From contig CAKPAX010000004.1 of the NCBI GenBank assembly GCA_934133175.1, forward strand, positions 41,529 to 73,528: a DNA stretch of 32,000 bases. The letters run 5' to 3'. The stretch comes from an uncultured Clostridia bacterium. Lineage in GTDB: Bacteria; Bacillota; Clostridia; TANB77; CAG-508. Both the position numbers and the translations under genes were made by a program. Of this stretch, positions 22,055-28,115 are shown piece after piece. How positions within the stretch are numbered: position 1 is the stretch's first letter; each line of letters starts with the position of its first letter. The notes under the pieces were generated by a model. It was not told the origin of the DNA. It did not search any database and worked only from the letters and a program-made list of their open reading frames with translations.

Positions 22055-22124
22055 AAAACATTCAAACTATTTAAAAAATGAACTAAATATGATATAATTG
22101 GTAAAAATTTATAGGAGAGAGTTT

Positions 22125-22973
22125 ATGGGAGAATTTTGGGATATATATGATGAAAATAGAAAGAAAACAGGTAGGTTTGCAGAAAGGGATGTATATAAGT
22201 TAAAAAAAGGAGAATATCATATTGTTGTAACAGCTATAATAATAAATTCTAAAAATGAAATATTAATAACTAAAAGGGCACCACAAAAGAGTTTTGCACT
22301 AATGTGGGAATTGACGGGAGGATCTGTAAAAAAGGGAGAAACAAGTTTAGAAGGAATAATTAGAGAAGTTAATGAAGAAATAGGTATAAATTTTTCAAAA
22401 AAAGAAGCTATTTATTTAAAAACTGTCAGAAGAACAAAATTGTGTAATGATTTTAAAGATATGTGGGTATTTAAAAAAGATATAAAATTAGAAGATTTGG
22501 TTCTTCAAAAAGAAGAAGTTATAGATGCAAAGTGGGTTGATATAAATAAGTTTTTAGAAGGAAAAAATGATAAGAGTATAATACCAATAATTGACTTTGA
22601 TGAAAACGATTATAAAAAAGTAATAGATTTAAAGCAAAGGGAATCTTATAAATATATAGGAGAAAATGTTTCTGTAAAGATAGATAGACCTAAAGGAAGT
22701 AAACATCCTAAACATGATTTCGAATATGAAGTTAATTATGGGTATGTTCCAAATACAATAAGTGGTGATGATGAAGAAATAGATTGCTATATATTAGGAG
22801 AAAATGAAAAGTTAAAAGAGTTTAAAGGAAAATGTATAGCAGTAATACATAGAACAAATGATGACGATGATAAACTAGTTATAGTTCCAGAAGGAAAAGA
22901 CTTTACAGATGAAAAAATAAAGGAGTTAACTAATTTTCAAGAAAAATATTTTGAAAGCGAAATTATAAGATAG
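22125..22973 (+). CDS. NUDIX hydrolase fused to a short inorganic-pyrophosphatase-like domain
   Basis: ATG 22125 follows TAGGAGAGAG, whereas the ORF-track start at 22098 is a TTG without an SD. The NUDIX box is GGSVKKGETSLEGIIREVNEEIGI. The C-terminal part, KIDRPKGSKHPKH..NYGYVPNT..DDEEIDCYILG..HRTNDDDDKLVIV, resembles family I PPase acidic motifs. Confidence 0.8.
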   Translation: MGEFWDIYDENRKKTGRFAERDVYKLKKGEYHIVVTAIIINSKNEILITKRAPQKSFALMWELTGGSVKKGETSLEGIIREVNEEIGINFSKKEAIYLKTVRRTKLCNDFKDMWVFKKDIKLEDLVLQKEEVIDAKWVDINKFLEGKNDKSIIPIIDFDENDYKKVIDLKQRESYKYIGENVSVKIDRPKGSKHPKHDFEYEVNYGYVPNTISGDDEEIDCYILGENEKLKEFKGKCIAVIHRTNDDDDKLVIVPEGKDFTDEKIKELTNFQEKYFESEIIR

Positions 22974-22987
22974 AAGGAAAGTAATAA

Positions 22988-25489
22988 ATGAAGTTTATAA
23001 ATGAAATATATTTAGATAAAGAAAAAGATATAATAATAAAGTTATATGATAAAGGAGAAGATGAAATTAAGTATGTTTTAGAAACTCCAAATCATAATAC
23101 AGGGAATTTAATAACTAATTTAGCAAAAATTTGTGACTTAGAAACTGTAAAAAATAAAGATGATATGAAAATAATTACAGGAGTAATACCGGCAAGTATT
23201 AATGGGGATAATGAAGAAGTATATATTTTAAGACTTGGTGGAATAAAAATAGCTAATATATTTAAAAATGGAAAAATAGAATTAAAAGCAAAAATTCCAT
23301 CAATAATGAAAACTTTAATGTCTCAAACAAAAGATTATAGATTTGGAGTAGATAAAACTATTGTTAAATTTTATTTATTTAAAAAAACAAAATTTAGAAC
23401 AGATTTACATACACATATGAATGCTAATTTGTCTCCTGATATATTAATTGCATTAGGGATAACTCATCAGATAAAATATCCTTTATACTACATAAAAAAA
23501 TTAAAACTAAAATTAACAAAAGAACAAGAAGAAAAAATATATGAACAAAGAAAATTGGTAGAAAAAGATTTTGAAAATTCGGAGTTAAAAGGAAAATACT
23601 TAACAAGAAGAATTGATGATAATACTTTTATAAATTTTGCTGATTTTATTTTAAATAATTTAGAAAATTCAAAGGAAAATATTGAAAAAATAAGAGCAAG
23701 TTTAGCTATATTAAAAGATGGACAAGCAGTTTTTACGAACTTAGAAAAAGTTTACTTATATAGATATATTTTTGCAAAAGGAACAGAAAGTAAAGAAAAA
23801 ATAAAATTAGATATAAATAAAATAAATGAAATCTACCAAAAAGATATAAAAGAGGCTGTAATAAAAATGCTTGAGGATAAAAAAAGAGGAAGTATTTATG
23901 CAAAAAATAATTTAAGACAAGATAAATTATTATGGATTGCTAGGGAATATCAAAAACAGGGAATTTATTATGTAGAAATTGCTGATACTACACTAACTAA
24001 AAAAGGACTTCCAGCAATAGAATTGTTAGAAGAAATACATGATATTATGCCAAAAATAGAAGCGGAAACAGGAGTAATAATAAGATTTTTAGTAGCAATA
24101 AGAAGAATTCCATTAACTATTATTAAAGATAATATAACAAGTAGTGATTATTTAAGAGAAAATTTAAGCGTTTTAAAAGCAGTATCAAGAAGTCCATATG
24201 TTGTTGGAAGTGATTTTATTGGAGAAGAAATAAATGATATTTCTGAATTAAAACCAGCAATAAAAGAAATAACACAATTTGCTGTTGCACAAAATAACGG
24301 ATTTACAATAAGAATACATGCTGGAGAAAATGATAGTTTAAGAAATAATGTTTTAAAATCAATACAATTAGTTAGAAAATCAACTGAAAAAGGTCAAAAA
24401 ATGCCTAGAGTTAGAATAGGACACGGATTATATACTCCAGAGTTAGATAGTGAAGAAGGAAAAAAATTAATTAAAGAAATAAAAAAATCAAATGCTGTTA
24501 TGGAATTTCAATTAACATCAAATGTTAGATTAAATAATTTAAGTAAAATAGAAGGACATCCTTTAAAAAAATATTTAGATAATGGAGTAAAATGTGTACA
24601 AGGAACAGATGGCTGTGGATTTTATGGAACAGACACAATTGAAGAACAATTAGCAATGCAAAATTTATTGAAATTAAAACCAGAAGACTTTGAAAAAATG
24701 AGAGATGTGGAAGATGAGATTATAAAAGAAAATAAAAAATATTTTATAAAAAAATCAAAAGATTTTGACAAATTCTTAAATGGAAGAACATTAAGAAAGG
24801 CTATTCTTCAATTAGAAGACGAGATTATAAATGAAGATATAAATAAAAATATAAAATTGAGATTAAATAACAAAGTTGATTCAAGTAAAAAACTAAAAGA
24901 TATTATAAAAGAGTTGCCAACTGATAAAACACCTATAATAGTTGCTGGTGGAAGTTTTAATGCTCAAAATGTTGAAACGATTACTGAAGATACTGGAATT
25001 AATTCATTAAGAGAATTGATAAAAAAATTAGATGATAAAAAGGTATTTTTTGTAATAGGACATAAATTGCAAGGATATGAGAAAGCTGTTTTAGAATTGT
25101 GTCAAGAGTTAAATAAAAAAATTGAAGTTTATGCTATAATACCTAAAATGATAGAAAAAAATATAGCCGAAAATATTTTAAAATCTAATATAACAGGAGT
25201 CCGTATATCAACAGAAAGTGAAGATTTTGGAATATATAAAAGTTTTAATTATGAGATTTTTGAAAGAAGATTTTCAATAGTAATAGCATTTGATGGGCAT
25301 TCTCCTGTATCAAATTTGGTTCAAGAAGCCAAAAATGGAAAAGCAAAATCAAAAATATATGTAAATAGGAAAAATGAAAATTTAAATTACAAAGCAAAAA
25401 CTCTAAAAGGCTATATAACGCCATTTGAAATTGAAGATAATATTGCTAATAAAATAATTGAGGATAATATAGATATAATAAAAAAATAG
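22988..25489 (+). CDS. Large adenosine/AMP-deaminase-fold protein with unknown N-domain, helical insertion and C-terminal SLOG/LOG-like Rossmannoid domain
   Basis: 833 aa. The ordered ADA signature is DLHTHMN (H141, H143), IHAGE (H444, E447), RIGHG (H479) and GTDG (D541). The C-terminal 190 aa show PIIVAGGSF, VFFVIGHKLQGYEKAV, EVYAIIP and SIVIAFDGHSPVSNLVQEA. It starts 14 nt after the NUDIX gene. Confidence 0.75.
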   Translation: MKFINEIYLDKEKDIIIKLYDKGEDEIKYVLETPNHNTGNLITNLAKICDLETVKNKDDMKIITGVIPASINGDNEEVYILRLGGIKIANIFKNGKIELKAKIPSIMKTLMSQTKDYRFGVDKTIVKFYLFKKTKFRTDLHTHMNANLSPDILIALGITHQIKYPLYYIKKLKLKLTKEQEEKIYEQRKLVEKDFENSELKGKYLTRRIDDNTFINFADFILNNLENSKENIEKIRASLAILKDGQAVFTNLEKVYLYRYIFAKGTESKEKIKLDINKINEIYQKDIKEAVIKMLEDKKRGSIYAKNNLRQDKLLWIAREYQKQGIYYVEIADTTLTKKGLPAIELLEEIHDIMPKIEAETGVIIRFLVAIRRIPLTIIKDNITSSDYLRENLSVLKAVSRSPYVVGSDFIGEEINDISELKPAIKEITQFAVAQNNGFTIRIHAGENDSLRNNVLKSIQLVRKSTEKGQKMPRVRIGHGLYTPELDSEEGKKLIKEIKKSNAVMEFQLTSNVRLNNLSKIEGHPLKKYLDNGVKCVQGTDGCGFYGTDTIEEQLAMQNLLKLKPEDFEKMRDVEDEIIKENKKYFIKKSKDFDKFLNGRTLRKAILQLEDEIINEDINKNIKLRLNNKVDSSKKLKDIIKELPTDKTPIIVAGGSFNAQNVETITEDTGINSLRELIKKLDDKKVFFVIGHKLQGYEKAVLELCQELNKKIEVYAIIPKMIEKNIAENILKSNITGVRISTESEDFGIYKSFNYEIFERRFSIVIAFDGHSPVSNLVQEAKNGKAKSKIYVNRKNENLNYKAKTLKGYITPFEIEDNIANKIIEDNIDIIKK

Positions 25490-25505
25490 TACATAATATA
25501 ATAAA

Positions 25506-25540
25506 AATATAATCTAATTAAATTAGGTTATATTTTTATT
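25506..25540 (+). terminator. Hairpin terminator after the deaminase gene
   Basis: aatataatctaatt (25506-25519) pairs with aattaggttatatt (25521-25534) with one G-U pair, and a T5 run overlaps the 3' arm. Confidence 0.55.
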
Positions 25541-25904: not shown

Positions 25905-25968
25905 GAAAAAGACTAGTTTTTGAGGAAAATTCATTAGAATTCAAAAACAGTCAAATGATTTTAAGTAA

Positions 25969-26007
25969 GCTATTTTCTAAGAGTTTTTAGAAAATAGCAT
26001 TTTTTTA
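25969..26007 (+). terminator. Strong rho-independent terminator downstream of tRNA-Pro
   Basis: gctattttctaa (25969-25980) pairs with ttagaaaatagc (25987-25998), followed by a T7 run. Confidence 0.75.
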
Positions 26008-26184
26008 TTTATTCCAAAAAATGTCTAAAAATTCTAAAAAATTCTAATTTTTTGTTCCAAAAAGTGTTCCGTAAGATTAAAAATTCAAAAATAAGATGTT
26101 CCGGAATGTTCCGTGAAGCAAAAATCATTGATATTTAGCTACTTTGAGTGTTGAACGAATAACACAAAAAGGAGGGCTAATGAT

Positions 26185-26550
26185 ATGAATTTTATACCAT
26201 ACAAAGCTAATGAATATCTTGAAAATAGTTTCTATCAAGTACCAAAAGAACTATTTATTAATCCATATTATGTGACTTTAAGTCTTGCAAGTAAGGTATT
26301 ATATGGATTATTACTAGATAGATTGTCAATATCTATAAAGAATAATTGGACTGATGATAAGGGAGATATTTATATAGTATATTCAAGAAAAGAAGCTGGA
26401 TTAAAGCTTAATCTTTCAGATAAGACTGTTACAAAAGCATTCAAAGAGTTAAAGAATGTCAAATTAATTCGTGAAATTAGGACAGGTTTTAAGAAAAATA
26501 ACATTATCTATGTAGGAAAGATTAATCATGTTGAAATTTATGATTCGTAA
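26185..26550 (+). CDS. RepA_N-domain (replication initiator A N-terminal) protein, short form
   Basis: FYQVPKELFINPYY..LSLASKVLYGLLLDRLSISIKNNWTDDKGDIYIVYSRKEAGLKLNLSDKTVTKAFKELKNVKLI fits the RepA_N consensus as I recall it. At 121 aa it contains only the N-terminal domain. GGAGGG lies upstream. Confidence 0.7.
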   Translation: MNFIPYKANEYLENSFYQVPKELFINPYYVTLSLASKVLYGLLLDRLSISIKNNWTDDKGDIYIVYSRKEAGLKLNLSDKTVTKAFKELKNVKLIREIRTGFKKNNIIYVGKINHVEIYDS

Positions 26551-26618
26551 AAAGTACGACTCATGATAAGGAAATTTTACGATTCTAGAAACGGAAAAAT
26601 TACGATGTAATAATATTA
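26550..26618. repeat. Three phased 23-bp iteron-like direct repeats at the 3' end of the RepA_N gene
   Basis: TACGA occurs at 26555, 26578 and 26601, exactly 23 nt apart. The units are aaaagTACGActcatgataagga, aatttTACGAttctagaaacgga and aaaatTACGAtgtaataatatta. An inverted copy, tcgta, lies at 26545-26549. Confidence 0.6.
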
Positions 26619-26686
26619 AATATAATATAAATAAATTAATTAATATTTATTACATACTAAAAGAAAATATAAGGAGTGAATAAATT

Positions 26687-27052
26687 ATGAGTAGAAAAGA
26701 ATTAGAATATCAAAAAATAGGAGACTTTTATCTTCCAAAGGTAACTTTACCTGCTGAAGATGATAAATTAGATAATATAGGCAAATATGGACTATTAAGA
26801 TTAGAGTATCTGAAAGAACATAAGAAAGGTTATTATACTTTTCTTATGATTAATGGATCAGTTCCATTTGAATTAAGGAATATAGATTCTGCTGCAAATG
26901 AAAGAGTAAAAAAGATAATAAAACAACTAGCAGACGAGGAAAATGTCAATGAAGAATTGAAAGCTAAAGACCAAATGGAATGGGTAAGATGTATGAATAA
27001 TATAAAGAACAGAGCTGAAGAAATTGTACTTAAAGAACTTATTTATGTATAA
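26687..27052 (+). CDS. TnpV-family transposon-encoded protein
   Basis: YQKIGDFYLPKVTLPAEDD..IGKYGLLRLEYLKEHKKGYYTFLM..IDSAANERV..ELKAKDQMEWVRCMNNIKNRAEEIVLKELIY follows the TnpV consensus (GDYxLPxLxLP, YGxxxLxYLxEH, LKAxxxxxWxxxMNNI, EIVxxExIY). AAGGAG lies upstream. Confidence 0.8.
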   Translation: MSRKELEYQKIGDFYLPKVTLPAEDDKLDNIGKYGLLRLEYLKEHKKGYYTFLMINGSVPFELRNIDSAANERVKKIIKQLADEENVNEELKAKDQMEWVRCMNNIKNRAEEIVLKELIYV

Positions 27053-27242
27053 AATTGATTACTAAAAAATTATTCAAAGAGAAATTAAAAGTACAAAAAG
27101 GGGATTAAATAATAATCTATAAAATAAATTTATGTACCTAGAAAAGTCCAAATAAAGGTACTATAAATTAAAAATAAGTATCACATAAAGTGCAACGCAA
27201 GGTACAAAAATAGGTGCAATAAATTATTTTATAAATCCATTT

Positions 27243-27357
27243 CTTGTCCTAGCAAGCAATGAATGTGGGAGACCGAAAAAATCATTTTCTGTCTCAGCAA
27301 GCAATGAATTCGTTCACACGAATTCTGCTTGCTCCCCATTCTGGTCAATGGGACAAG
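27243..27357 (+). other. GC-enriched structured element (nested hairpins plus a 14-nt direct repeat), a candidate cis-regulatory RNA, oriT or recombination site
   Basis: Outer stem cttgtcc (27243-27249)/ggacaag (27351-27357). Hairpin gagac (27269-27273)/gtctc (27291-27295). A 15-bp hairpin pairs agcaagca..gaattcg (27296-27312) with cgaattc tgcttgct (27319-27333). Hairpin ccatt (27336-27340)/aatgg (27347-27351). An exact repeat agcaagcaatgaat lies at 27251-27264 and 27296-27309. Confidence 0.5.
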
Positions 27358-27401
27358 TCCCAAGCCCTTTTATAAAAATTTGAGTGAGAGGAGAATAGAA
27401 A

Positions 27402-27695
27402 ATGAAAAATTTAAGAGAAGTAAACGATGATATATTAAAAGAATGGTTAGAATTTAGAGAAGAAACTATTTTATGCTATCTTAATGAAGAAGATAAAAAA
27501 CATGGATTATTTATTGATGAAATATCTGAAAAGATTTTGAAAAATGTTCCTAAACAAAATAAGAAATATGTTGAAAAGCAATTAAATGAGCTAGATAAAA
27601 ATTTTATGGATTACTTAGGTTATTGGAATGAAAAATATTATAGGAATGGATTTGTTGATGGGATAGAATTAATTAGAGGTTGTGGTCATATATAA
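27402..27695 (+). CDS. Hypothetical 97-aa protein
   Basis: The ORF has GAGAGGAG upstream. I recognise no motif apart from a C-terminal YYRNGFVDGIELIRG pattern. It lies immediately downstream of the structured element. Confidence 0.55.
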   Translation: MKNLREVNDDILKEWLEFREETILCYLNEEDKKHGLFIDEISEKILKNVPKQNKKYVEKQLNELDKNFMDYLGYWNEKYYRNGFVDGIELIRGCGHI

Positions 27696-27702
27696 ATTAT
27701 TA

Positions 27703-27736
27703 AAAGTGTGAAAGATACAATTTTCTTTCACACTTT
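27703..27736. terminator. Bidirectional hairpin terminator
   Basis: aaagtgtgaaaga (27703-27715) pairs with tctttcacacttt (27724-27736), between convergent genes. Confidence 0.65.
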
Positions 27737-27742
27737 ATCTTT

Positions 27743-28099
27743 TTATACTTCAAAATAATCTTCTATATTACTGCTAGACCATCCACCATAACCAGGTCTA
27801 CCAGGAGTCCCACTAAATCCTGGTCTTCCTGGTGTGCCAGGTATACCTGGTGTTCCAGGAGTTCCACCAATTCCTGGTTGATATGGTAAATATCCAGTGT
27901 AATTTAATTTAAATGCAAGAGCTTTATTTTTTGAATCATATAAAACGCCATTTTCATACCAACCAATGTGCTTACCATTTTTTATATTATATATATTTCC
28001 ATTGTAAATCCAAGCTAGATTTTTACCAGTTTTACTTATAAGTCTATCATCATATTTAAATAACTCAGCTTGTCCATTTTTATTATATAGCCATTCCAT
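27743..28099 (-). CDS. Four-repeat beta-hairpin (4-fold beta-flower-like) protein with a C-terminal collagen-like Gly-X-Pro tail
   Basis: Four repeats of about 14 aa (WLYNKNGQAELFKY, RLISKTGKNLAWIY, GNIYNIKNGKHIGWY, NGVLYDSKNKALAF) are followed by nine consecutive GXY triplets (GTP GTP GIP GTP GRP GFS GTP GRP GYG). AAAGGAG lies upstream, 16 nt after the HNH gene. Confidence 0.6.
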   Translation of the reverse strand: MEWLYNKNGQAELFKYDDRLISKTGKNLAWIYNGNIYNIKNGKHIGWYENGVLYDSKNKALAFKLNYTGYLPYQPGIGGTPGTPGIPGTPGRPGFSGTPGRPGYGGWSSSNIEDYFEV

Positions 28100-28115
28100 A
28101 GTAATTTACTCCTTT

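What the first reader, a model, noticed from the sequence alone, without database searches (positions are those of the whole stretch)
22125..25489. Operonic NUDIX-pyrophosphatase fusion plus 833-aa ADA-fold protein with SLOG/LOG-like C-terminal domain: candidate nucleotide-conversion (ATP to ITP) conflict or signalling module
Two co-directional genes lie 14 nt apart (stop 22971-22973, ATG 22988). htrA lies upstream, and a hairpin terminator plus tRNA genes lie downstream. Gene 1 fuses a canonical NUDIX box (GGSVKKGETSLEGIIREVNEEIGI) to a short inorganic-pyrophosphatase-like domain (KIDRPKGSKHP..NYGYVPNT..DDEEIDCYILG..NDDDDKLVIV). Gene 2 carries the metal and catalytic signature of the adenosine/AMP deaminase amidohydrolase fold in the correct order: H141-x-H143, H444/E447 in IHAGE, H479 in RIGHG and D541. 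It is more than twice the size of a housekeeping Add. It has an N-terminal domain of about 135 aa that I cannot place and a helical insertion of about 170 aa after the HxH strand. Its C-terminal alpha/beta domain of about 190 aa has a strand plus Gly-rich-loop pattern (PIIVAGGSF, VFFVIGHKLQGYEKAV, SIVIAFDGHSPVSNLVQEA) resembling SLOG/LOG/DprA Rossmannoid nucleotide binders. There is established precedent for oversized ADA-fold enzymes acting as antiviral effectors that deaminate (d)ATP to (d)ITP. RdrB of RADAR is one, and the CARF-fused Cad1/CAAD of type III CRISPR is another; as I recall, Cad1/CAAD loci often include a NUDIX enzyme acting on ITP. SLOG domains have been proposed as ligand sensors in nucleotide-based conflict systems. 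My inference is a self-contained module. A SLOG-type sensor would gate an ATP/dATP deaminase, and the NUDIX-PPase partner would clear ITP/dITP (to IMP plus PPi, then 2 Pi). I do not recognise this three-activity architecture as a described system.
Basis: partly seen in the sequence, partly recalled or inferred. Interest (0 to 1): 0.8.

Follow-up and report, generated by a model that had tools for sequence, protein, structure and literature searches.

The report
Adenosine-deaminase enzyme fused to SLOG sensor
A gut Clostridia genome encodes a large, uncharacterised enzyme that joins an adenosine-deaminase catalytic barrel to a nucleotide-sensing SLOG domain, but its pairing with the neighbouring NUDIX-pyrophosphatase gene is confined to two sister lineages, so the proposed two-gene antiviral module is not supported.

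Summary
Gene 1 (22125-22973) is a canonical NUDIX domain fused to a truncated family-I pyrophosphatase core. Gene 2 (22988-25489, 833 aa) has an intact adenosine-deaminase (ADA) metal and catalytic site. Its AlphaFold model is confident (pLDDT 92). It shows an N-terminal alpha/beta domain, an ADA barrel with a ~160-aa helical insertion, and a C-terminal SLOG domain. The closest structures to that domain are the TRPM N-terminal domain, DprA, the Moco-carrier protein and LOG.

The NUDIX-PPase/ADA adjacency occurs only in this lineage and one sister lineage. The next relative (81% identity) has htrA directly followed by the ADA gene. NUDIX-PPase orthologues sit elsewhere in other genomes. Only 4 of 57 ADA-SLOG loci have any NUDIX gene nearby.

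Within this clade the ADA-SLOG gene lies in housekeeping contexts (htrA, or pheST/ffh-trmD) and is under purifying selection. Distant relatives (21-31% identity) lie on mobile or variable DNA. Their recurrent partners are different: a PGDYG-domain protein (adjacent, or fused to the C-terminus) and two unknown small proteins. No TIR, CARF or RdrA partner was found.

The most likely function is a SLOG-regulated adenine-nucleotide deaminase of unknown physiological role. I rate it a new variant of a known kind, of moderate interest.

The parts
22070..22098 (+). Promoter-like site (TTTAAA, 17-nt spacer, extended TG, TATAAT) upstream of gene 1
   Evidence: Consensus scan and sequence. This is a consensus match only. 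It makes the TTG at 22098 an unlikely start codon.
22125..22973 (+). Gene 1: 282-aa NUDIX hydrolase fused to a truncated family-I inorganic pyrophosphatase core
   Evidence: ORF. Pfam NUDIX 1.3e-15 plus Pyrophosphatase 4e-8. Member of a conserved 282-aa family with 2155 hits.
22215..22574 (+). NUDIX domain (aa 31-150), with the NUDIX box starting at nt 22320
   Evidence: The closest solved structures are MutT-type NTP pyrophosphohydrolases (3hhj, 1.3e-9).
22647..22970 (+). PPase-like domain (aa ~175-282). It aligns to residues ~49-129 of 173-aa family-I PPases and keeps the NYGxxPxT motif and the Asp clusters. The C-terminal third of a normal PPase is absent.
22974..22987 (+). 14-nt intergenic spacer containing the gene 2 ribosome-binding site (GAAGGAAAG). 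No terminator lies between the two genes.
   Evidence: Co-transcription is inferred, not shown.
22988..25489 (+). Gene 2: 833-aa three-domain ADA-SLOG protein
   Evidence: ORF. AlphaFold2 pLDDT 92.4, pTM 0.92. Purifying selection in all domains, omega 0.04-0.28.
22988..23392 (+). N-terminal alpha/beta domain (aa 1-135), fold unassigned
   Evidence: Strands and helices in the model. No Pfam hit above noise. By phmmer the domain is detectable only within the window's own clade.
23393..24907 (+). ADA-fold amidohydrolase barrel (aa 136-640). Catalytic residues: H141/H143 (nt 23408-23416), H444 and E447 (nt 24317-24328), H479 (nt 24422-24424), D541 (nt 24608-24610).
   Evidence: Pfam. Residue invariance. 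Foldseek best match is adenosine deaminase 6n9m, 4e-11. Profile search gives 6n9m at 7e-20.
23483..23959 (+). Helical insertion (aa ~166-324) between the HxH strand and the second barrel strand
   Evidence: Helices 166-324 in the model. This is the most constrained segment, omega 0.008-0.2.
24908..25486 (+). C-terminal SLOG (LSDAT-like) Rossmannoid domain (aa 641-833), with conserved loops PIIVAGGSFN, FVIGHKLQGYEK and FDGHSPVSNLVQEAKNGK
   Evidence: Domain model pLDDT 91. Foldseek hits: TRPM4 1e-4, DprA 4.6e-4, Moco carrier protein 5e-4, LOG 2.6e-3, TRPM2-ADPR 4.8e-3. Pfam LSDAT_prok in 8 of 24 relatives.
25501..25539 (+). AT-rich intrinsic-terminator hairpin followed by a U-rich tail
   Evidence: RNA fold -20 kcal/mol, z = -6.8.

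Best explanation
Gene 2 encodes a member of an uncharacterised family of large ADA-fold enzymes, here called ADA-SLOG. The protein has an N-terminal alpha/beta domain, a zinc-dependent adenine-deaminase barrel with a ~160-aa helical insertion, and a C-terminal SLOG (LSDAT-type) nucleotide-binding domain.

The most likely mechanism is as follows. The barrel deaminates the adenine of a phosphorylated adenine nucleotide rather than free adenosine. The SLOG domain binds a nucleotide-type ligand, such as ADP-ribose or ATP as in TRPM channels, and controls activity or oligomerisation.

In this clade of low-GC gut Clostridia the gene is a vertically inherited chromosomal gene in housekeeping neighbourhoods. 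Its role here is most likely regulated purine-nucleotide turnover, not a dedicated antiviral system.

Gene 1 is an independently conserved MutT-like NTP pyrophosphohydrolase. Its fused PPase core removes the PPi product. It came to lie upstream of the ADA gene only in this lineage and its sister lineage. Co-expression would give a chemically coherent ATP -> ITP -> IMP + 2 Pi route, but that coupling is a recent local arrangement and not a conserved system.

Shown: the domain architecture, intact catalytic residues, purifying selection, and the lineage-restricted adjacency. Inferred: the substrate class, the regulatory role of SLOG, co-transcription, and the physiological role.
For: Architecture and active site.

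The protein is not an Add orthologue. It scores 59.8 against TIGR01430, whose cut-off is 216.6.

Sequence reading combined with my recollection of ADA and ADAL structures: the residue two positions after the HxH motif is Asn145 (HTHMN). This position is Asp19 in mouse ADA, where it binds the ribose hydroxyls. The second Asp of the TDD motif is a nearly invariant Gly542. These substitutions argue against plain adenosine as substrate.

Core-like context in the window's clade:
- htrA-ADA in the window, L001, L059, L060 and L061-68.
- htrA ... CDA-fold deaminase-ADA in L002, L003, L012 and L014; in L018 the CDA-fold deaminase is separated from the ADA gene by one intervening gene.
- pheS-pheT-ADA-ylxM-ffh-rimM-trmD-rplS in L007 and L017, with one or two intervening genes in L006; L016 shows the upstream part only.

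ADA protein divergence (63-71%) tracks htrA divergence (62-69%) across these loci. All domains have omega of 0.04-0.28.

The pairing is not conserved.

Gene 1 is MutT-like with a PPase catalytic core.

No TIR, CARF, cyclase or RdrA partner was found among the window ORFs scanned. PADLOC gives no system-level hit.
Against: - No biochemical data exist for any member of the family.
- More distant relatives sit on mobile or variable DNA, next to serine recombinases, a Mob_Pre relaxase, a methyltransferase or Cas9-Cas1-Cas2. They have recurrent non-metabolic partners: a PGDYG protein (adjacent or fused), c33 and c2. This pattern is more typical of conflict or mobile-element cargo genes than of purine metabolism.
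- The ADA gene alone has been exchanged between the two sister lineages. It is 95-99% nt identical versus 79-86% for the flanks, with dS 0.19 versus 0.51-0.72. This hints at selection on this gene.
- Sensor-fused ADA enzymes (Cad1/CAAD) and SLOG-fused effectors (ThsA) are established antiviral designs.
- The gene lies about 0.7 kb from a tRNA-Pro integration hotspot that here carries SoFic and a HaeIII-type restriction-modification system.
Confidence: 0.5

Rival explanations
1. Self-contained antiviral or abortive-infection effector. The SLOG domain senses an infection-derived nucleotide signal, such as an ADPR-type or cyclic nucleotide. It switches on an ATP/dATP deaminase, as in Cad1/CAAD and RdrB. 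In this lineage the NUDIX-PPase has been recruited to detoxify ITP/dITP, as reported for CAAD-Nudix pairs.
For: - Sensor-plus-ADA architecture is confirmed.
- The CAAD-Nudix precedent is in the literature.
- SLOG acts as the sensor in ThsA.
- Relatives lie in mobile or variable regions, next to Cas9 loci, recombinases and methyltransferases.
- A Nudt16-like NUDIX lies directly downstream of the ADA-SLOG gene in an Ignavibacteriales relative.
- Gene-specific introgression has occurred between sister lineages.
- The 14-nt spacing suggests co-transcription.
- The NUDIX part hits PADLOC candidate PDC-S07 at 2.8e-18.
Against: - The pair is confined to two sister lineages.
- NUDIX genes occur in the flanks of only 4 of 57 loci.
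- The window's own clade shows fixed housekeeping synteny and core-like divergence.
- No signal-generating partner such as TIR or a cyclase was seen in the ORFs scanned in the window or in the related loci examined.
- No known-system PADLOC hit appears beyond generic ADA similarity.
- The ADA domain is far closer to housekeeping ADA than to Cad1.
- The PDC-S07 hit is explained by generic NUDIX similarity.
Confidence: 0.2
2. Mobile-element cargo with a counter-defence or competition role in the wider family. The SLOG domain captures an adenine-containing immune signal, such as a cADPR isomer or a cyclic oligoadenylate. The ADA barrel deaminates it and so inactivates the signal. The window's clade would carry a domesticated chromosomal descendant.
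For: - Intermediate relatives that share the window-type SLOG motifs sit in a tight c33-ADA-c2 operon. One is on a contig with a Mob_Pre relaxase and TnpV.
- c2 occurs in several copies around the gene.
- PGDYG matches only phage families of unknown function.
- Viral SLOG domains have been proposed to act on ADPr-derived immune signals (PMC9503650).
Against: - This is purely contextual, with no precedent for deaminative signal inactivation.
- No relatives were found in the viral contig collection, although that was a limited two-pattern scan.
- No viral protein shares the architecture in BFVD.
- The window's own copy is not on a mobile element.
Confidence: 0.1
3. Bifunctional purine-salvage enzyme in which the SLOG domain is itself catalytic. 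It would act as a LOG- or PpnN-like nucleotide N-glycosidase releasing base plus ribose-5-phosphate, working in series with the deaminase.
For: - LOG enzymes are among the structural matches (7w2i, 5zbl with AMP, 1t35).
- The distant clade has a GGGxxVxD motif that parallels the LOG PGGxGTxxE motif.
- The slot between htrA and the ADA gene holds other nucleotide enzymes in sister lineages: a CDA-fold deaminase or the NUDIX-PPase.
Against: - In the window's clade the motif reads FDGHSPVSN. The acidic residue is replaced by an invariant Asn and the Gly pair is degraded.
- The best structural and Pfam matches are to the non-catalytic ligand-binding LSDAT/TRPM and DprA branches.
Confidence: 0.1

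Closest known systems
Cad1 / CAAD (CARF-fused adenosine deaminase of type III CRISPR-Cas)
   Same: An ADA-fold barrel is fused to a Rossmannoid ligand-sensing domain. It is structurally alignable (9c6f, 8e-9; 8z3k). CAAD is sometimes partnered with a Nudix hydrolase that mitigates ITP toxicity.
   Different: The sensor here is a C-terminal SLOG domain, not an N-terminal CARF domain. There is no CRISPR context in the window. Profile similarity is marginal (about 4e-4, against 7e-20 for ordinary ADA). The window protein also has an extra N-terminal domain and a 160-aa helical insertion.
ThsA of Thoeris (SIR2-SLOG)
   Same: An enzymatic effector is fused to a C-terminal SLOG domain that binds an ADPR-derived signal.
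   Different: The effector here is an ADA barrel, not a SIR2 NADase. No ThsB/TIR signal generator was found in the window or in any related locus examined. The SLOG domain here is closest to the LSDAT/TRPM branch.
RdrB of RADAR
   Same: Both are oversized (~800-900 aa) ADA-fold proteins. That RdrB deaminates (d)ATP is from my own knowledge.
   Different: No RdrA ATPase partner is present. There is no PADLOC RdrB hit. RdrB is absent from the top 50 structural matches and from all profile matches.
Housekeeping adenosine deaminase (Add; e.g. Salmonella 6n9m, Plasmodium ADA)
   Same: This is the best sequence and structure match for the catalytic barrel. The metal and catalytic residues are identical.
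   Different: The window protein is 2.4 times larger, with three added modules. It scores below the TIGR01430 cut-off. The ribose-binding Asp is replaced by Asn145, and the second Asp of the TDD motif by Gly542.
TRPM channel N-terminal MHR1/2 domain (LSDAT SLOG) and Pfam LSDAT_prok
   Same: These are the best structural matches for the C-terminal domain (TRPM4, TRPM8, TRPM2 bound to ADPR). LSDAT_prok is the best Pfam family for relatives.
   Different: The window's own sequence does not reach Pfam significance (part A). It is fused to an enzyme, not to a channel or a SLATT-type membrane domain.
MutT-type NUDIX NTP pyrophosphohydrolases and family-I inorganic pyrophosphatase (gene 1)
   Same: The NUDIX box is canonical and MutT is the nearest match. 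The PPase core retains the metal-binding Asp clusters.
   Different: The two activities are fused in one 282-aa chain. The PPase part lacks the C-terminal third. All scores fall below every NCBIfam equivalog cut-off, so substrate specificity is unknown.

Membership tests
Adenosine/AMP deaminase superfamily (Pfam PF00962) | Significant match to the family model and a (beta/alpha)8 amidohydrolase fold | tested here: met
   Pfam 75.3 bits against a cut-off of 27. Foldseek gives TMt 0.76 to 6n9m.
Adenosine/AMP deaminase superfamily (Pfam PF00962) | Zinc ligands HxH, His and Asp, plus catalytic Glu and His | tested here: met
   H141, H143, H444, E447, H479 and D541 are invariant or nearly so across 50 sequences.
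Adenosine deaminase Add equivalog (TIGR01430) | Score above the curated equivalog cut-off | tested here: not met
   59.8 bits against a cut-off of 216.55.
SLOG superfamily | Rossmannoid three-layer alpha/beta fold matching SLOG members | tested here: met
   Domain model pLDDT 91. The top 38 Foldseek hits are all TRPM, DprA, Moco carrier protein or LOG, with E down to 1e-4 and TMq 0.5-0.62.
SLOG superfamily | Sequence-profile match to a SLOG family | tested here: inconclusive
   8 of 24 homologous C-domains hit LSDAT_prok (best 7e-6), 2 hit LSDAT_euk, 1 hits LDcluster4 and 1 hits YAcAr. The window's own domain has no hit.
Cad1/CAAD | CARF sensor domain fused to the ADA domain | tested here: not met
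   The PADLOC CARF_ADA hit covers only the ADA part (aa 313-560, profile positions 335-559). The N-terminal domain gives no CARF hit.
Cad1/CAAD | Location in a type III CRISPR-Cas locus | tested here: not met
   No cas genes were found among the window ORFs scanned. The Cas9 (type II) seen next to some distant relatives is not type III.
RADAR (RdrA/RdrB) | RdrB-family deaminase with an adjacent RdrA ATPase | tested here: not met
   No PADLOC RdrB or RdrA hit. The neighbours are htrA, the NUDIX-PPase and tRNAs.
Thoeris | TIR-domain ThsB signal generator next to a SLOG-containing ThsA | tested here: not met
   No TIR hit was found in the neighbours scanned in the window or in related loci. Not every window ORF was scanned.
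NUDIX hydrolase superfamily (gene 1) | NUDIX box GX5EX7REUXEEXGU and a family-model match | tested here: met
   Box at nt 22320. Pfam 58 bits against a cut-off of 21.1.
Family-I inorganic pyrophosphatase (gene 1, C-terminal half) | Full-length PPase fold with the complete active site | tested here: inconclusive
   Pfam 33.6 bits against a cut-off of 23.5. Only profile positions 28-111 of 153 are covered. The Asp clusters are retained and the C-terminal third is absent. Activity was not tested.
Conserved two-gene system (NUDIX-PPase + ADA-SLOG) | Co-occurrence of the pair across homologues | tested here: not met
   The pair is present only in the window lineage and its sister lineage. It is absent from the 81% relative, from the 17 other GTDB species loci and from the NUDIX-PPase orthologue contexts.

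The most novel reading that the evidence does not exclude
ADA-SLOG proteins would be a previously undescribed class of ligand-gated adenine-nucleotide deaminases used in biological conflicts. They would combine the logic of ThsA (a SLOG sensor) with that of Cad1 and RdrB (an ATP/dATP-to-ITP effector). In most lineages they would work with PGDYG-domain, c33 and c2 partners on mobile elements. In this gut Clostridia lineage the enzyme would be fixed in the chromosome and secondarily coupled to a NUDIX-PPase that clears ITP/dITP.
Probability: 0.2. Interest if true: 0.8.

Novelty: new variant of a known kind. Interest (0 to 1): 0.5.

Why it matters
Sensor-fused nucleotide-modifying enzymes are a recurring design in bacterial immunity and signalling. 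An ADA barrel controlled by a SLOG domain has not turned up in the literature I could search.

If the SLOG domain gates deamination of ATP or another adenine nucleotide, the family would add a third, independent solution to regulated ATP-to-ITP conversion, alongside CARF-ADA and RdrB. It would also offer a tractable prokaryotic model for ligand sensing by the TRPM-type SLOG domain.

The family has about 500 to several thousand members in gut and anaerobic metagenomes, and all are annotated only as "adenosine deaminase" or "hypothetical". Even the ordinary reading, a regulated purine-nucleotide deaminase, would correct that annotation.

Showing that the NUDIX-PPase pairing is lineage-specific also guards against over-interpreting one operon as a system.

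Tried and rejected
- RdrB/RADAR and Cad1/CAAD membership is rejected. There are no partner genes, no CARF domain, only marginal profile similarity to Cad1/CAAD, and no RdrB match in the PDB profile or PADLOC searches.
- Assembly chimera as the explanation for the 99%-identical ADA allele in L001 is rejected. Nine independent assemblies show the same excess identity, and dS is about 3-fold lower than in the flanks.
- A conserved NUDIX partnership across the family is rejected. Only 4 of 57 loci, in 3 lineages, have a NUDIX gene nearby.
- Relationship of the N-terminal domain to the PGDYG partner: the PGDYG HMM does not hit the window protein.
- Identity of PGDYG, c2 and c33 could not be established. 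There were no PDB, PADLOC or informative Pfam/PHROG matches beyond PF14083 itself and a weak Zn_dep_PLPC hit.
- A sequence-profile search of the SLOG domain against PDB found nothing. Only fold comparison worked.
- The viral collection scan and the BFVD fold search found no relatives. The viral scan used only two peptide patterns, so it is weak negative evidence.
- The first broad profile (A4) was too divergent for locus scans.
- The Burroughs et al. 2015 SLOG paper could not be retrieved. A prior mention of an ADA-SLOG fusion there therefore cannot be excluded.

Full report
**1. Observation**

The two ORFs are present as described.

- Gene 1 most likely starts at ATG 22125. This start is preceded by an AGGAG ribosome-binding site and by a promoter-like TTTAAA-17-TGnTATAAT site at 22070-22098. 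The gene ends at 22973.
- Gene 2 starts at ATG 22988, 14 nt after the stop of gene 1, behind a GAAGGAAAG ribosome-binding site. It ends at 25489.
- An AT-rich hairpin at 25501-25539 (-20 kcal/mol, z = -6.8) with a U-rich tail follows gene 2. After it come tRNA-Arg(ACG) and tRNA-Pro(UGG).
- The upstream gene is htrA, with Trypsin_2 and PDZ domains.
- The window is extremely AT-rich, roughly 11-31% GC and typically 20-28%.
- Related contigs come from uncultured gut Clostridia MAGs.

**2. Gene 1**

- Pfam finds NUDIX (aa 31-150, 1.3e-15) and family-I Pyrophosphatase (aa 195-275, 4e-8).
- The NUDIX box GSVKKGETSLEGIIREVNEEIG is canonical.
- The nearest characterised relatives are MutT-type NTP pyrophosphohydrolases. 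Every NCBIfam equivalog cut-off is missed, so substrate specificity is unknown.
- The C-terminal ~105 aa align to residues ~49-129 of 173-aa PPases. The NYGxxPxT motif and both Asp clusters are retained. The last third of a normal PPase is missing.
- A NUDIX enzyme that releases PPi, fused to a PPase, makes chemical sense. This is inference.
- The fusion is a conserved 282-aa family with 2155 hits.

**3. Gene 2 architecture**

- Pfam sees only the ADA domain (aa 318-571, 6e-21).
- A 50-sequence alignment reaching 21% identity (A2) gave an AlphaFold2 model with pLDDT 92.4 and pTM 0.92.
- The model shows four parts:
  - an N-terminal alpha/beta domain (aa 1-135);
  - the amidohydrolase barrel beginning at the H141-x-H143 strand;
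  - a helical insertion (aa ~166-324);
  - after two long helices, a C-terminal alpha/beta domain (aa ~641-833).
- The ADA zinc and catalytic residues H141, H143, H444, E447, H479 and D541 are invariant or nearly so.
- The barrel's best structural and profile matches are ordinary adenosine deaminases: 6n9m at 4e-11 by Foldseek and 7e-20 by profile.
- Cad1 and CAAD appear only from rank 25 structurally, and at about 4e-4 by profile. RdrB does not appear.
- The protein fails the Add equivalog cut-off, with 59.8 against 216.6 bits.
- Two residues that contact the nucleoside in classical ADA are changed. The Asp two positions after HxH is Asn145. The second Asp of the TDD motif is Gly542, which is nearly invariant. 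The structural roles of these residues are from my own knowledge. I take the changes as a hint that the substrate is not plain adenosine and may be phosphorylated.

**4. The C-terminal domain is SLOG**

- Modelled alone it has pLDDT 91.
- Its top PDB matches are exclusively SLOG-superfamily members: the TRPM4, TRPM8 and TRPM2 N-terminal domain (1e-4 and up, including TRPM2 bound to ADPR), DprA, the Moco carrier protein and LOG.
- Eight of 24 homologous C-domains hit Pfam LSDAT_prok ("SLOG in TRPM, prokaryote", best 7e-6). The window's own domain does not.
- The family shows the two Gly-rich loops typical of SLOG/LOG: "YFVTGGxxxGxEK" and "iGGGxxVxDxIQ".
- In the window's clade these loops read "FVIGHKLQGYEK" and "FDGHSPVSNLVQEAKNGK". 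They are invariant within the clade but lack the acidic residue at the LOG catalytic position.
- This favours a ligand-binding role over a catalytic one.

**5. Is the pair a module?**

No.

- Eighteen GTDB species carry close ADA-SLOG relatives at 63-99% identity. The NUDIX-PPase is adjacent only in the window and L001.
- Eight further independent assemblies of the L001-type lineage also have the pair.
- The next relative (81% identity; L059, L060) has htrA directly followed by the ADA gene.
- In other lineages, a 153-aa CDA-fold deaminase (dCMP_cyt_deam_1, 7.7e-30) lies between htrA and the ADA gene, sometimes together with other genes.
- A further subclade has the order pheS-pheT-ADA-ylxM-ffh-rimM-trmD-rplS.
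- NUDIX-PPase orthologues at 63-65% identity sit in unrelated contexts, such as ylmH-NUDIX-PPase-NUDIX-CutA1.
- Across 57 ADA-SLOG loci with 448 kb of flank, NUDIX-box genes occur in 4 loci from 3 lineages. One of these is a Nudt16-like gene directly downstream in an Ignavibacteriales relative. I judge this too sporadic to indicate a conserved partnership; no statistical test of enrichment was run.

**6. Core-like behaviour in this clade**

- ADA protein identity (63-71%) tracks htrA identity (62-69%) across loci.
- All domains are under purifying selection, with omega of 0.04-0.28.
- The neighbours are housekeeping genes.

**7. The wider family looks different**

- A search of 1.84 billion representative proteins gave 801 hits, 138 of them below 1e-30. 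These include full-length proteins at 21-31% identity and 700-1000 aa.
- Members come from Clostridia, Christensenellaceae, Bacilli, Alphaproteobacteria ("Azospirillum" gut MAGs) and Ignavibacteriales.
- In this distant clade the recurrent neighbours are:
  - a PGDYG-domain protein (PF14083), in 9 loci;
  - a distant PGDYG relative (c12), in 5 more loci;
  - a ~150-aa protein (c2), with 13 copies in 9 loci;
  - a ~170-290-aa protein (c33), which is only weakly similar to zinc phospholipase C.

- The PGDYG domain is fused to the C-terminus of ADA-SLOG in at least twelve proteins, at 3e-17 to 1e-34. This is Rosetta-stone evidence that PGDYG belongs to the system in that clade.
- Intermediate relatives that share the window-type SLOG motifs form a tight c33-ADA-c2 operon. 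One is on a contig with a Mob_Pre relaxase and TnpV.
- Other loci carry serine recombinases, an N6/N4 methyltransferase, or Cas9-Cas1-Cas2 immediately downstream.
- None of these partners occurs in the window.
- No relatives were found in viral contigs or in BFVD.
- No TIR, cyclase, CARF or RdrA partner was seen in any locus examined.

**8. An unexpected feature**

- Between the window lineage and its sister lineage the ADA gene is 95-99% nt identical. VanW, htrA and the NUDIX-PPase are 79-86% identical. This holds in nine independent assemblies.
- dS is 0.19 for the ADA gene, against 0.51 for htrA and 0.72 for the NUDIX-PPase.
- This is a gene-sized introgression, not an assembly artefact. 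The third lineage (L059) shows no such excess.

**9. Interpretation**

- Best supported (confidence about 0.5): a SLOG-regulated adenine-nucleotide deaminase from an uncharacterised family. It is fixed in the chromosome of this clade, with a lineage-specific and possibly co-transcribed NUDIX-PPase neighbour.
It lacks the expected evolutionary signature in this clade.
- A mobile-element counter-defence origin (about 0.1) and a catalytic LOG-like SLOG domain (about 0.1) are minor rivals.

**10. Novelty**

- Literature searches found no description of an ADA-SLOG or LSDAT-deaminase fusion, and no paper mentioning PGDYG.
- The key 2015 SLOG paper could not be read.
- I rate the finding a new variant of a known kind, namely a sensor-domain-fused ADA or SLOG-fused effector. 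Interest is 0.5.

Noticed in passing
window 25905-32000: Collinearity with the sister lineage ends just after tRNA-Pro. Downstream lies what appears to be an integrated mobile element. It carries a RepA_N/DnaD-like replication protein (26185-26550), a phrog_24764 protein, a Bflower protein (27743-28099), a SoFic defence protein (28738-29862, PADLOC 9.8e-87), and a HaeIII-type restriction endonuclease with a C5 cytosine methylase (29951-31916). Other assemblies have a phage integrase, a radical-SAM gene or a peptidase at this site, so it is an integration hotspot.
   Followed up: partly
window 22988-25489 compared with L001 and L061-L068: Gene-specific introgression. The ADA-SLOG gene is 95-99% nt identical between two lineages whose flanking genes are 79-86% identical. 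dS is 0.19 for the ADA gene, against 0.51-0.72 for the flanks.
   Followed up: yes
L065:5372-7812: In one assembly of the sister lineage the ADA-SLOG gene is split into 407-aa and 362-aa ORFs. This could be a pseudogene or an assembly error.
   Followed up: no
L036, L037, L039 (aa ~790-975 of the ADA proteins); L023, L024, L026, L032, L033, L035, L044, L046, L052 (adjacent genes): A PGDYG-domain protein (PF14083, function unknown) is either adjacent to ADA-SLOG or fused to its C-terminus in the distant clade. This indicates a functional partnership that is absent from the window.
   Followed up: partly
L056:1-4063 and L057:1-4090: A tight operon of a c33-like gene (~290 aa), ADA-SLOG, and a c2-like gene (157-158 aa, overlapping the ADA stop). 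In L056 it lies on a contig with a Mob_Pre relaxase and TnpV. c2-like genes recur in several copies around ADA-SLOG genes.
   Followed up: partly
L028, L029, L030 (about 10.1-14.6 kb in L028): A Cas9-Cas1-Cas2 locus lies immediately downstream of the ADA-SLOG gene. A serine recombinase and a distant PGDYG relative lie upstream. The source is not identified; the ADA protein is about 67% identical to P0287, whose close relative P0393 is annotated as Azospirillum sp.
   Followed up: no
L002, L003, L012, L014, L018 (genes upstream of the ADA gene): A 153-aa CDA-fold deaminase (dCMP_cyt_deam_1, guanine-deaminase-like) lies in the region between htrA and the ADA gene, where the window has the NUDIX-PPase. 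It is directly upstream of the ADA gene in some loci and separated by one gene in others. Different nucleotide enzymes have been inserted at the same position in different lineages.
   Followed up: partly
window 2001-5000: A stretch of extremely low GC content (11-15%) with few long ORFs.
   Followed up: no
window 10979-17298: A block of minus-strand genes includes a TraG/TraD-like coupling protein (14712-16001). It is followed by a tRNA-Lys/Glu/Thr cluster (17013-17298). This may be a second mobile-element remnant.
   Followed up: no
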